IMG/VR virus record: IMGVR_UViG_2695420699_000005
Direction: 5' to 3' (one strand)
Length of the DNA: 4,660 nt
Origin: a virus
Lineage: Duplodnaviria > Heunggongvirae > Uroviricota > Caudoviricetes
Both the position numbers and the translations under genes were made by a program. Shown here in pieces: positions 3,257 to 4,660 of this stretch (the stretch's first letter is position 1; each line of letters starts with the position of its first letter). The notes under the pieces were generated by a model, which had not been told where the DNA came from, searched no databases, and saw only the letters and a list, made by a program, of their open reading frames with translations.

Positions 3257-3332
3257 GGCCCTTTAGCTCAGTGGTGAGAGCGAGCGACTCATAATCGCCA
3301 GGTCGCTGGTTCAAATCCAGCAAGGGCCACCA
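3257..3332 (+). tRNA. ileZ: tRNA-Ile2-like (anticodon CAU, ileX/ileZ type; formally could read as tRNA-Met)
   Basis: 76 nt with acceptor stem GGCCCTT/AAGGGCC, D-arm AGCTCAGTGGTGAGAGC, anticodon loop CTCATAA, T-loop TTCAAAT, discriminator A and encoded CCA. Near-identical by recollection to E. coli ileX (tRNA-Ile LAU). A phage tRNA-Ile of this type next to a tRNA-Arg is the arrangement known from Stx-type lambdoid phages. Confidence 0.9.
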
Positions 3333-3339
3333 TCACATA

Positions 3340-3419
3340 CCGCCATTAGCTTATCAGGAAGAGCAGACGACACCATAACAGGGTTGTTGGTGCGGGGGCG
3401 GGTCCCCGATGGCGGTCCA
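3340..3419 (+). tRNA. tRNA-like element, non-canonical (possible pseudo-tRNA or argN-position remnant)
   Basis: Perfect 7-bp acceptor-type pairing CCGCCAT (3340-3346) with ATGGCGG (3409-3415), then T and CCA (3416-3419). Plausible D-arm GCTT-ATCAGGAA-GAGC and a 5-bp GC stem CGGGG/CCCCG directly abutting the 3' acceptor strand. However the T-loop is a non-consensus 6 nt (GCGGGT) and no canonical anticodon stem-loop could be drawn. Confidence 0.35.
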
Positions 3420-3432
3420 TTATCGGTATTCT

Positions 3433-3509
3433 GCGTTGTTAGCTCAGCCGGACAGAGCAATTGCCTTCTAAGCAATCGGTCACTGGTTCGACTCCACTAC
3501 AACGCGCCA
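3433..3509 (+). tRNA. argO: tRNA-Arg (anticodon UCU, reads AGA)
   Basis: 77 nt with acceptor GCGTTGT/ACAACGC, D-arm AGCTCAGCCGGACAGAGC, anticodon stem-loop ATTGC-CTTCTAA-GCAAT (anticodon TCT), T-loop TTCGACT, discriminator G and encoded CCA. One C-C mismatch in the T-stem. Resembles E. coli argU. Confidence 0.85.
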
Positions 3510-3522
3510 CACTTATTTTCCA

Positions 3523-3546
3523 GGCTCGCTTCGGCGGGCCTTTTTT
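3523..3546 (+). terminator. Rho-independent terminator downstream of the tRNA cluster
   Basis: 7-bp stem GGCTCGC/GCGGGCC (one G-U pair) with a UUCG tetraloop (3530-3533), followed by TTTTTT (3541-3546). Confidence 0.6.
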
Positions 3547-3678
3547 GTATCTGCGCCACGCCCGGTGCATATCAACCACAGAGCCTTTCGGGGGTGAGCT
3601 TACGGAGTGGTCAGTGTGACTTTCTCTGTGGGCAGATCGCTCCCGGGCGTTGGCTCACCCACCCAAAGGAACGTCACG

Positions 3679-4111
3679 ATGTTTGGTATTTTTGGTAAAA
3701 AAAGCCCGCAGAGCGGCAACGGAAATTAAAAAGTTTGAAAAACGCGATCTGGCACAGGTGGTGATTAACGCCGCATACCTGGTGGCCTGTGCAGATGGTG
3801 AATGTGAGGCTTCCTAGAAAGCGAAGATCGAACAGGTACTGCGTAATCAGCCTGCGCTGTCCGCGTTTACGTCAGAAATTAATGCGATTAGCGCAACCAT
3901 TATCGGTCAGCTGGATACGAACTTTAAAATTGGTCGTCGTGCGGCGTTACGTGAGATCGAGGATGTGAAACACGATACGCGTGAAGCGGAAGATGTGCTG
4001 GATGTGGCGGTGGCCATTGCGGAGGCAGACGGCGAAATTGAGCCGGAAGAGCGCAAGGTGCTGGAAGAGATTGCCGGTGTTCTGGGTCTTCGTCTGGAGA
4101 ATCACCTGTGA
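3679..4111 (+). pseudogene. TerB-like (tellurite-resistance TerB family) gene disrupted by a frameshift in an A7 run and an in-frame amber codon
   Basis: ATG at 3679 with an AGGA Shine-Dalgarno 8 nt upstream reads MFGIFGKK then stops after 16 codons. Shifting +1 at the A7 run (3697-3703) continues as ARRAATEIKKFEKRDLAQVVINAAYLVACADGECEAS, hits TAG at 3815-3817, then continues KAKIEQVLRNQPALSAF...VAIAEADGEIEPEERKVLEEIAGVLGLRLENHL to TGA at 4109-4111. The composition is strongly protein-like and the ADGE...EE...L pattern resembles TerB-type domains, which I recall being annotated at this position in enterobacterial prophages. Confidence 0.5.
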
Positions 4112-4275
4112 CGGTAAAACTGCGCCTGACTGTGGCTGCACTCCTGCTGTTTCTGGTGGTGATGGTGGATTTCACCAGCAGAATCATGTCGGTGCTGGCG
4201 GATGGGGTGCTGGTCTGCGGCATTGTGGTATTGCTGTGGCCGGTGATAAAAAGAAACAGCCTGCATAATGCTTGA
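4108..4275 (+). CDS. Small hydrophobic membrane protein (about 55 aa, two predicted TM helices), translationally coupled to the TerB-like frame
   Basis: GTG start at 4108 overlaps the TerB-frame stop (GTGA). Translation VTVKLRLTVAALLLFLVVMVDFTSRIMSVLADGVLVCGIVVLLWPVIKRNSLHNA has two hydrophobic segments and ends at TGA 4273-4275. Track ORF 3981..4268 is in another frame and is W/R-rich and non-protein-like. Not in the ORF track under this frame; start codon uncertain (internal ATG alternatives exist). Confidence 0.4.
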   Translation: MTVKLRLTVAALLLFLVVMVDFTSRIMSVLADGVLVCGIVVLLWPVIKRNSLHNA

Positions 4276-4476
4276 TTTTTTTGTTTGCTGTTTATTAAAA
4301 ACACTTCTGCATGGTGAATCCCCCTGTGCGGAGGGGCAATCAGCGAGTAGGTATATGGGATAATCGCGGATTCAGGTGCTGGTACTGAATTCACCGGGAG
4401 GCACCCGGCACCATGCTTTGCCACAAAAGTGTTATTTCTGTTTTTCTCAAACTATCATCGTTATCCCTTTATTTCC

Positions 4477-4503
4477 GGCTGCGCATGGCGCGGCCTTTTT
4501 TTT
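4477..4503 (+). terminator. Rho-independent terminator
   Basis: 8-bp stem GGCTGCGC/GCGCGGCC (one G-U pair) with 3-nt loop ATG, followed by eight T (4496-4503). Confidence 0.6.
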
Positions 4504-4589
4504 ACGACCAGCCACTGGCAGATGGTCATCCTGTGATTTGATTCCGGTTCCGGCTTTTTAACTCTGTTCCTGTACACGGGAGAAATTCG

Positions 4590-4660
4590 ATGTCGATTAA
4601 ACATTATGATGTTGTCAGGGCGGCGTCGCCGTCAGACCTTGCGGAAAAGCTGACACACAA
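4590..4660 (+). CDS. Hypothetical protein, 5' end only (runs off the window)
   Basis: ATG at 4590 preceded by a GGGAG Shine-Dalgarno (4578-4582). Open frame MSIKHYDVVRAASPSDLAEKLTH to the window end. Not hydrophobic, so unlikely to be a holin. Family not recognised. Confidence 0.45.
   Translation, partial: MSIKHYDVVRAASPSDLAEKLTH

What the first reader, a model, noticed from the sequence alone, without database searches (positions are those of the whole stretch)
4108..4275. Translationally coupled two-TM micro-protein after the TerB-like frame
A roughly 55-aa protein with two hydrophobic helices overlaps the TerB-frame stop by GTGA. Small two-TM proteins in phage late regions can be holins, superinfection-exclusion factors or membrane toxins. 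If the upstream gene is dead, expression of this one may be altered. It is absent from the ORF track only because of frame and start-codon choice.
Basis: inference. Interest (0 to 1): 0.45.

Follow-up and report, generated by a model that had tools for sequence, protein, structure and literature searches.

The report
TciB: small membrane partner of TerB-like TciA
The 55-codon frame is a real, already annotated phage gene (TciB, family DUF3927) for a tiny membrane protein that phages almost always carry directly behind a TerB-like gene; its function has never been tested, and in this prophage the TerB-like partner has a premature stop codon.

Summary
Bases 4108-4275 (+) are a GTG-started 55-codon ORF whose start overlaps the TerB-frame stop (GTGA). 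It has two hydrophobic segments, with basic residues at both ends.

It is a real gene and not a new one. RefSeq annotates the same coordinates as a "DUF3927 family protein". It matches Pfam PF13064 (E 3e-17) and PHROG 1470 "TciB-like" (E 6e-30). The name comes from phage P1 tciB.

Across 142 copies from phage and genome collections, 136 sit directly behind a TerB-like gene, within -8 to +1 nt. There are 81 distinct junctions; 53 overlap by 4 nt and 22 by 1 nt. The pair occurs in lambdoid prophages, P1-like phage-plasmids and virulent N4-like phages. The sense frame is open in all 83 distinct sequences, with median dN/dS 0.23.

No function has been tested experimentally. P1 tciA, tciB and tciC are non-essential by CRISPRi. 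A holin role is unlikely.

My best inference is that TciB is the membrane-embedded partner of the TerB-domain protein TciA, in a dispensable accessory module.

Here tciA is a pseudogene (GAG>TAG at codon 45). That allele is in 521 of 5426 complete E. coli genomes. tciB remains intact and has its own GGAG ribosome-binding site.

This is an ordinary, known gene of unknown function.

The parts
4108..4275 (+). tciB coding sequence: 55 aa, GTG start, TGA stop. DUF3927 / TciB-like small membrane protein.
   Evidence: ORF. (PF13064, E 3.3e-17). (PHROG 1470, E 5.6e-30). (RefSeq CDS WP_000216653.1 at the same coordinates). (sense-frame dN/dS 0.23; frame open in 83 of 83 distinct sequences).
4126..4167 (+). 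Hydrophobic segment 1 (residues 7-20, LTVAALLLFLVVMV), preceded by K4 and R6.
   Evidence: hydropathy; family N-tail averages +1.85 K/R. Boundaries are inferred, not measured.
4168..4182 (+). Conserved polar turn D21-F22-T23-S24-R25, predicted to face the periplasm.
   Evidence: D21 is invariant and F22 is at least 90% conserved in alignments that were not selected by my search pattern. The orientation is inferred from the positive-inside rule.
4183..4248 (+). Hydrophobic segment 2 (residues 26-47), holding conserved S28, D32-G33 and W44-P45. K48 and R49 follow.
4096..4099 (+). GGAG Shine-Dalgarno-like motif 8 nt upstream of the tciB GTG, inside the tciA 3' end.
   Evidence: Read from the sequence. 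A GGA or GGAG motif at -16 to -5 is present in 77 of 81 distinct junctions.
3679..4111 (+). tciA, the TerB-family gene, here a pseudogene. The ancestral ATG is at 3679 and the RefSeq start is the TTG at 3683. The A7 run is at 3697-3703 (A6 in alleles where the ATG is in frame). The premature TAG is at 3815-3817 (GAG in Sakai Sp12). The stop is TGA 4109-4111.
   Evidence: PF05099 on the C-terminal part. (PHROG 632). (RefSeq 'internal stop'). (allele comparison). (TerB structure 2jxu, E 3e-7, for the intact JLK-2012 homologue).
4280..4452 (+). STnc100-family sRNA gene starting 5 nt after the tciB stop. It is context, not part of the protein module.
   Evidence: Rfam RF02076, 101.5 bits against a gathering score of 47, E 4e-22.
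4477..4503 (+). Intrinsic-terminator-like hairpin plus T-run downstream of tciB and STnc100, before the esterase gene that starts at 4590.

Best explanation
Bases 4108-4275 encode TciB, a 55-residue inner-membrane protein of the DUF3927 family.

Shown:
- It is a real gene under purifying selection.
- It is almost always placed immediately behind a TerB-domain gene (tciA), with overlapping or abutting stop and start codons.
- This arrangement holds in lambdoid prophages, P1-like phage-plasmids and virulent N4-like phages.

Inferred:
- The two proteins are made together from one message in roughly fixed proportion and act together at the inner membrane.
- TciB is the membrane-embedded subunit: N-in/C-in, with the conserved acidic and polar cluster D21-F-T-S...S28...D32-G33 towards the periplasmic side.
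- TciA is the cytoplasmic TerB-fold subunit. It has no transmembrane segment but a conserved hydrophobic-then-basic N-terminus (MFGIFGKKARR).
- This parallels the reported TerB partnership with the integral membrane protein TerC. From background knowledge, not tested here, it also parallels the single-chain 'membrane anchor plus TerB-like domain' layout of DjlA and YebE.
- The module is a dispensable accessory ('moron') function expressed during lytic growth. It probably conditions the membrane or envelope state of the infected cell rather than causing lysis.

In this window the module is probably crippled. tciA carries a premature TAG at codon 45. tciB is intact and can still be translated from its own GGAG site.
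For: Gene reality:
- Family matches and RefSeq annotation at the same coordinates.
- The sense frame is open in 83 of 83 distinct nucleotide sequences, while four of the other five frames are mostly closed.
- Median dN/dS is 0.23 in the sense frame and at least 1 in four other frames. Column entropy peaks at codon position 3.

Pairing:
- 136 of 142 tciB copies have a TerB-like ORF ending -8 to +1 nt from the tciB start. Four of the six exceptions lie at the end of the DNA held.
- There are 81 distinct junctions, and coupling is achieved in several ways: 51 GTGA, 2 ATGA, 22 one-nt overlaps and 6 others.
- The pair is present in P1, Pollock, SP-058, Fostie and JLK-2012, and in Pantoea and other Enterobacterales prophages.

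Topology: the N-tail averages +1.85 K/R, the loop is net about 0, and the C-tail averages +2.

Dependence on TciA (weak evidence): the orphan tciB of phage 434 has substitutions at two otherwise near-invariant positions (R6C, S28L). Its dN/dS against the window type is 0.66.

Precedent: TciA has the TerB fold and weakly matches DjlA. A TerB-TerC interaction is reported in PMC11003894, citing Turkovicova 2016.

Accessory status: P1 tciA, tciB and tciC are non-essential (PMC10695390). Nearly half of one P1 subgroup lacks the operon (PMC9603915). Here the cassette occupies the slot that stxAB occupies in Stx phages.
Against: - No physical interaction between TciA and TciB has been shown or modelled here.
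- No natural TerB-TciB fusion turned up among 1.84 billion representative proteins. The two long hits are frameshift artefacts.
- TciB exposes only about 6 and 8 residues to the cytoplasm, which leaves little surface for a soluble partner.
- Orphan tciB copies persist in phages 434 and 2B8 and in E. coli prophages.
- tciB stays intact behind the dead tciA allele found in 521 complete genomes. TciB may therefore work, or at least be harmless, alone.
- AlphaFold2 gave one continuous helix (residues 2-53, pLDDT 90) rather than a hairpin, so the two-span topology is unconfirmed.
- Distances between TciA and TciB sequences correlate only moderately (r 0.43).
- The biological role is entirely inferred.
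Confidence: 0.55

Rival explanations
1. TciB is a self-sufficient small membrane effector, for example a superinfection-exclusion factor, a colicin-protection factor or a mild membrane-perturbing peptide. It would merely be co-transcribed with tciA, which would modulate or be unrelated to its activity.
For: - Orphan tciB copies without tciA occur in phages 434 and 2B8 and in related prophages.
- tciB is intact, with its own GGAG site, behind the widespread nonsense allele of tciA.
- The conserved membrane-embedded acidic residues D21 and D32 could form an ion-binding or partner-binding site on their own.
Against: - Nearly all copies keep stop-start coupling to tciA through different junction sequences. 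That argues for selection on co-production.
- The orphan copies carry changes at otherwise conserved positions.
- The tciA nonsense allele is too recent to say anything about long-term retention; there are only 0-1 amino-acid differences in tciB.
- There is no match to any PADLOC defence model.
Confidence: 0.27
2. TciB is a holin, antiholin or other lysis-timing protein of the late region.
For: It is small, with two hydrophobic segments and a predicted N-in/C-in orientation like class II holins. In lambdoid prophages it lies between Q and the lysis cassette.
Against: - The prophage has its own class II holin and lysozyme further downstream.
- In P1 the pair is in the C1-controlled ban operon. 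In the N4-like phages it sits among early and replication genes, away from lysis genes.
- One copy sits next to a CI-like repressor.
- It matches no holin family.
- P1 tciB knock-down does not impair plaque formation (PMC10695390).
Confidence: 0.04
3. The frame is not a gene. The conserved element would be another frame or the antisense strand, or the ORF would be a chance by-product of the tciA 3' end and the sRNA region.
For: The antisense frame that shares wobble positions is open in 87% of sequences and has dN/dS 0.31. A 166-codon antisense ORF spans the region in the window.
Against: - That antisense signal is the expected by-product of sharing third codon positions with a constrained sense frame.
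- The sense frame is open in 100% of sequences.
- It keeps its start position and coupling, a conserved hydrophobic and charge pattern, and curated family models, across phages whose synonymous divergence is saturated.
Confidence: 0.02

Closest known systems
Phage P1 TciB (P1_gp075; Pfam PF13064 DUF3927; PHROG 1470)
   Same: - About 54 aa, with the same conserved core (VDFTS..LSVL.DG.LV...WP).
- The same position directly after the TerB-like tciA, with overlapping stop and start.
- tRNA genes nearby.
   Different: - About 50% identical.
- In P1 the pair lies in the C1-controlled ban operon and is followed by a 35-aa single-span TciC.
- Here it lies between the Q-like gene and the lysis genes, presumably in the late transcript. 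It has no tciC and is followed by the STnc100 sRNA.
[quoted passage not shown] No function has been tested.
E. coli O157:H7 Sakai prophage Sp12 ECs_2265 / ECs_5733 (TciA/TerB-like protein plus hypothetical protein)
   Same: The TciB protein is identical, the junction is the same, and the flanks are the same: tRNAs upstream, esterase and holin downstream. The region is 99.3% identical over 801 nt.
   Different: Sp12 tciA has GAG at codon 45 and is annotated as intact. The window has TAG.
TerB-TerC pair of the terZABCDE tellurite/phage/colicin resistance cluster
   Same: A TerB-fold protein works with an integral membrane partner. TerB is reported as a TerC interactor (PMC11003894). TciA matches TerB structure 2jxu at E 3e-7.
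   Different: TciB is a 55-aa protein with at most two spans and has no detected similarity to the multi-span TerC. No terC, terD, terE or terZ genes are nearby. This is a functional analogy only.
Class II holins (for example S21-type, 2 TMD, N-in/C-in)
   Same: Small size, two hydrophobic segments, both ends predicted cytoplasmic, and a location in a lambdoid late region.
   Different: There is no sequence-family match. It is not adjacent to an endolysin. It is conserved next to TerB-like genes in early regions of other phages, and it is non-essential in P1.

Membership tests
DUF3927 / TciB (Pfam PF13064, PHROG 1470) | Scores above the curated Pfam gathering threshold | tested here: met
   62.6 bits against a cut-off of 25, E 3.3e-17, covering residues 3-51 of 55.
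DUF3927 / TciB (Pfam PF13064, PHROG 1470) | Full-length match to the phage TciB-like family profile | tested here: met
   PHROG 1470, E 5.6e-30, residues 1-54 against profile positions 1-54 of 54.
DUF3927 / TciB (Pfam PF13064, PHROG 1470) | About 50-55 aa with conserved R6, D21-F22, S28, D32(-G33) and (W44-)P45 | tested here: met
   All are present in the window protein. These columns are at least 90% conserved in alignments A1 and A3, which were built from HMM-retrieved representatives.
DUF3927 / TciB (Pfam PF13064, PHROG 1470) | Encoded immediately downstream of a TerB-family gene with overlapping or abutting stop and start | tested here: met
   GTGA overlap at 4108-4111. The same arrangement is found in 136 of 142 copies and in 81 distinct junctions.
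Class II holin | Two transmembrane domains, N-in/C-in | tested here: inconclusive
   Hydropathy and charge distribution fit. The hydrophobic cores are only about 14-15 and 22 residues long, and AlphaFold2 gives one continuous helix.
Class II holin | Part of a lysis cassette, adjacent to an endolysin or spanin genes | tested here: not met
   It is separated from the resident class II holin and lysozyme by the sRNA and a 1.85-kb esterase gene. In P1 and the N4-like phages it lies in early regions.
Class II holin | Sequence membership in a holin family | tested here: not met
   Only DUF3927 and TciB-like models match.
Class II holin | Required for timed lysis | not testable with these tools
   The only indirect evidence is that P1 tciB is scored non-essential by CRISPRi (PMC10695390).
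ter (terZABCDE) tellurite/phage/colicin resistance cluster | TerB-domain protein present | tested here: met
   The upstream frame matches PF05099 at E 1.3e-7. The intact homologue matches TerB 2jxu at E 3e-7.
ter (terZABCDE) tellurite/phage/colicin resistance cluster | Accompanied by terC and terD/E/Z genes | tested here: not met
   None are annotated within 5 kb on either side in the matching genomes.
Known anti-phage defence systems (PADLOC) | Match to a defence-system protein model | tested here: not met
   TciB has no match. TciA has only a weak partial match to PDC-S48, E 0.005.
Type I toxin-like or other small membrane toxin; superinfection-exclusion protein | Toxicity on expression, or exclusion of incoming phage | not testable with these tools
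   No experimental data were found in the literature searches.

The most novel reading that the evidence does not exclude
TciA and TciB together form a minimal two-protein, phage-borne membrane module: a TerB-fold sensor or effector plus a dedicated 55-aa membrane subunit carrying a conserved acidic site. Temperate and virulent enterobacterial phages alike would use it to reset the host inner membrane during infection, for example its ion or metal balance or its envelope-stress signalling. The effect could be protection against colicins, superinfection or abortive-infection triggers. That would be a host-takeover or exclusion mechanism not yet described experimentally.
Probability: 0.2. Interest if true: 0.55.

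Novelty: already known. Interest (0 to 1): 0.22.

Why it matters
The gene itself is not a discovery. It is annotated in RefSeq, has Pfam and PHROG families, and was named in the P1 genome in 2004.

What remains open is its function. The literature I searched reports no experiment on TciB. The name of its partner rests on homology alone.

The pair is carried by very different phages: lambdoid, P1-like and virulent N4-like. In EHEC-type prophages it sits in the slot that Shiga toxin genes occupy in Stx phages, so it is a widespread accessory cargo. If the pair proved to be a membrane-conditioning or exclusion device, that would explain a common unexplained cassette in pathogenic E. coli prophages.

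For this window the practical message is simple: annotate the gene as tciB (DUF3927), note that tciA is a pseudogene, and do not call it a holin.

Tried and rejected
- The search for related loci with TciB alignments failed three times because no stretch was conserved enough. I replaced it with a degenerate DNA pattern. The first version had a miscounted gap and found nothing. The corrected versions worked. About 9 of the 22 genome hits were chance matches, as expected, and were removed with an HMM.
- I looked for a Rosetta-stone TerB-TciB fusion. There is none among the 60 representative clusters. P0131 (176 aa) and P0169 (119 aa) are frameshift or chimera artefacts.
- PADLOC, NCBIfam and PDB sequence searches gave nothing informative for TciB.
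- AlphaFold2 of TciB gave a single confident helix, which does not resolve the topology. A TciA plus TciB complex could not be modelled with the tools allowed.
- The P1 genome paper (PMC523184) is not held. A search for Sakai and EDL933 locus tags found nothing relevant.
- A conserved third gene (tciC) is rejected as a general feature. The downstream ORF is lineage-specific: a 35-aa single-span peptide in P1-like elements, a ~110-aa soluble protein in N4-like phages, and nothing consistent elsewhere. The 31-codon ORF at 4268-4363 here lies inside the STnc100 sRNA.
- An STnc100 promoter inside the tciB 3' end is not supported. Homology with Stx phages begins only near position 4300, and the promoter scan found no + strand site.
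- Comparing tciB variants behind dead and intact tciA alleles showed too few differences to detect relaxed selection.
- The GAG-allele count is not a clean comparison with the TAG-allele count, because other SNPs fall within the 61-mer.

Full report
**Setting**

The window is the Q-to-lysis segment of a lambdoid E. coli prophage. No complete genome in the collection matches it exactly over its whole length; the best is 98.1%, strain 14EC007. Over 3600-4400 it is 100% identical to that strain and 99.3% identical to prophage Sp12 of O157:H7 Sakai.

The gene order is:
- DUF968 protein, RusA, DUF1133 protein, a small hypothetical protein, a DNA methyltransferase;
- two tRNAs (3257-3332, anticodon CAT; 3433-3509, Arg-TCT);
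- a TerB-family gene;
- the ORF in question;
- a SASA-family esterase starting at 4590.

In the matching genomes a class II holin and a lysozyme follow.

**Observation**

Bases 4108-4275 (+) are a GTG-started ORF of 55 codons. Its start overlaps the TerB-frame stop as GTGA. The protein has two hydrophobic cores, residues 7-20 and 26-47, joined by D21-F-T-S-R25. K4 and R6 lie at the N-terminus and K48 and R49 after the second core. The description is correct.

An ORF of this length is not significant by itself, since the window has 58 ORFs of 30 aa or more. Everything below rests on homology and conservation.

**Identity**

- The protein matches Pfam PF13064 (DUF3927) at 62.6 bits against a cut-off of 25.
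- It matches PHROG 1470, 'TciB-like', over its full length at E 5.6e-30.
- RefSeq annotates exactly this CDS as 'DUF3927 family protein' WP_000216653.1, and Sakai has it as ECs_5733.
- Phage records call it TciB, after phage P1 tciB.

The family is small. It has 60 clusters at 50% identity among 1.84 billion representatives, nearly all 50-60 aa, and 225 clusters at 90% identity. Genome hits are Enterobacterales prophages, apart from one contig labelled Pseudomonas and one short MAG contig.

Conserved positions in alignments not biased by my search pattern are R6, D21, F22, S28, D32 and P45; G33 and W44 are common.

**Is it a real gene, and in this frame?**

I retrieved 120 IMG/VR loci and 22 GTDB loci with a degenerate pattern placed inside tciB. 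I filtered them with HMMs for TciB and TciA.

- Among 83 distinct nucleotide sequences the sense frame is always open. Four of the other five frames are mostly closed.
- Median pairwise dN/dS is 0.23 in the sense frame and at least 1 in four other frames. Column entropy is highest at codon position 3.
- The one antisense frame with low dN/dS (0.31; open in 87%) shares wobble positions with the sense frame. That is the expected artefact, not evidence for an antisense gene.

Caveat: the pattern demands D21, F22, D32, G33, W44 and P45, so conservation of those residues in this particular set is circular. The frame, dN/dS and neighbourhood results are not.

**The gene pair**

Of 142 tciB copies, 136 have a TerB-like ORF ending between -8 and +1 nt from the tciB start. 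Four of the six exceptions lie at the end of the DNA held. The other two are phage 434 and a 434-like contig.

After removing duplicates there are 81 distinct junctions: 51 GTGA, 2 ATGA, 22 one-nt overlaps (TGATG type) and 6 others. Tight coupling is thus kept through different sequences.

The pair occurs in:
- lambdoid phages and prophages (JLK-2012, Fostie, Sakai Sp12, Pantoea stewartii), between Q and the lysis genes;
- phage P1, inside the C1-controlled ban operon;
- virulent N4-like phages (Pollock, FSL SP-058), among early and replication genes;
- one prophage where it sits next to a CI-like repressor.

A third gene is lineage-specific and absent here.

**State of the upstream gene**

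The window's tciA has two differences from intact alleles.

1. The run after GGT is A7 (3697-3703). Alleles such as JLK-2012-like loci have A6 there, which keeps the ancestral ATG (3679) in frame. RefSeq rescues the A7 form, also found in Sakai Sp12, by starting at the TTG at 3683. That start still gives a hydrophobic-then-basic N-terminus.
2. Codon 45 is TAG (3815-3817) where Sakai has GAG. RefSeq marks the gene as a pseudogene with an internal stop.

This is not a private error. The TAG allele is in 17 of 46 E. coli-type IMG/VR loci. Its exact 61-mer is in 521 of 5426 complete E. coli genomes.

tciB behind it is unchanged or differs by one residue. It has a GGAG 8 nt before its GTG (4096-4099). 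I infer from gene order that the region is read by Q-modified polymerase; I did not locate the late promoter. I therefore expect translation to be reduced rather than abolished. That expectation is inference.

**What it does**

No experiment addresses TciB. [quoted passage not shown] CRISPRi scores P1 tciA, tciB and tciC as non-essential (PMC10695390). Nearly half of one P1 subgroup lacks the operon (PMC9603915). The authors of phage Pollock state that the role in a lytic phage is unknown (PMC4319500).

My best-supported reading is that TciB is the membrane-embedded partner of TciA.
- TciA has the TerB fold (2jxu, E 3e-7), has no transmembrane segment, and has a conserved MFGIFGKK-type N-terminus.
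- TerB is reported to partner the integral membrane protein TerC (PMC11003894).
- TciA weakly matches the TerB-like part of DjlA. That DjlA carries its own membrane anchor is background knowledge, not something tested here.
- The charge distribution of the family (N-tail +1.85, loop net about 0, C-tail about +2) predicts N-in/C-in. That places the invariant D21 and the conserved S28 and D32 near the periplasmic side.
- The orphan tciB of phage 434 carries R6C and S28L and shows dN/dS 0.66 against the window type. This is weak support for dependence on TciA.

Against this reading:
- no fusion proteins exist;
- the cytoplasmic tails of TciB are tiny;
- orphans persist;
- AlphaFold2 gives a single continuous helix, so even the hairpin is unproven.

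A variant in which the first segment is a cleaved signal peptide cannot be excluded, but V or I at the -1 position makes cleavage unlikely. That judgement rests on the (-3,-1) rule.

**Rivals**

- A self-sufficient membrane effector, for exclusion or toxicity, remains possible (about 0.27).
- A holin or antiholin role is unlikely. The location is variable, there is no family match, the prophage has a resident holin, and the P1 gene is non-essential.
- 'Not a gene' is effectively excluded.

**Context noticed**

- The cassette occupies the slot that stxA-stxB fill in Stx phages: Q, then cargo, then an STnc100-like region, then the esterase, then the holin.
- An STnc100-family sRNA (Rfam RF02076, 101.5 bits) starts 5 nt after the tciB stop. 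A terminator follows at 4477-4495.

**Verdict**

The object is a known, annotated gene family of unknown function. Novelty is 'already known' and interest is low to moderate.

Noticed in passing
window 4280-4452 (+): A strong match to the prophage sRNA family STnc100 (Rfam RF02076, 101.5 bits against a gathering score of 47) begins 5 nt after the tciB stop. The 31-codon ORF at 4268-4363, and the 62-aa 'membrane protein' annotated at the equivalent place in phage 434, lie within this RNA region and are probably not genes. Homology with Stx phages starts only near 4300.
   Followed up: partly
window 3815-3817: The tciA nonsense codon (TAG, against GAG in Sakai Sp12) is not a private mutation. 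The exact 61-mer around it occurs in 521 of 5426 complete E. coli genomes, which have a median of 3 copies of this region each. The allele is in 17 of 46 E. coli-type IMG/VR loci.
   Followed up: partly
window 3679-3704: A homopolymer of 7 A (3697-3703) puts the conserved ATG start (MFGIFGKK...) out of frame. Other alleles have A6 (in frame) or A8. RefSeq uses a TTG at 3683 instead, which still yields a hydrophobic-basic N-terminus (LVFLVKKARR). This could be simple decay or a slippage-prone tract.
   Followed up: partly
window 3257-4590, compared with L151 (Shigella phage 75/02 Stx): tciA-tciB occupy the cargo slot held by stxA-stxB in Stx phages: Q, then tRNAs or cargo, then an STnc100-like region, then the SASA esterase, then the holin.
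   Followed up: partly
L005 (phage P1) 1131-2791 and L001 (JLK-2012) 3678-4672: In P1 and in JLK-2012, tciA-tciB travel with tRNA-Asn and tRNA-Thr genes, and P1 also has tRNA-Ile(CAT). The window has tRNA(CAT) and tRNA-Arg upstream. This suggests a tRNA-plus-tciAB cassette exchanged between P1-like and lambdoid phages.
   Followed up: no
L002 (phage 434) 2138-3125: Phage 434 and 2B8 carry an orphan tciB with a TTG start, 85 nt after an unrelated 247-aa multi-span membrane protein. It has substitutions at otherwise near-invariant positions (R6C, S28L). Mosaic forms between the 434-type and window-type tciB also exist.
   Followed up: partly
L003 3514-4625, compared with window 3333-3432: The closest complete genome (14EC007) has an IS421-family insertion between the two tRNA genes. 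The window lacks it.
   Followed up: no
window 3522-3541 (+): There is a terminator-like hairpin plus T-run just after tRNA-Arg and about 140 nt before tciA. Expression of tciA-tciB may therefore depend on read-through by antiterminated polymerase.
   Followed up: no
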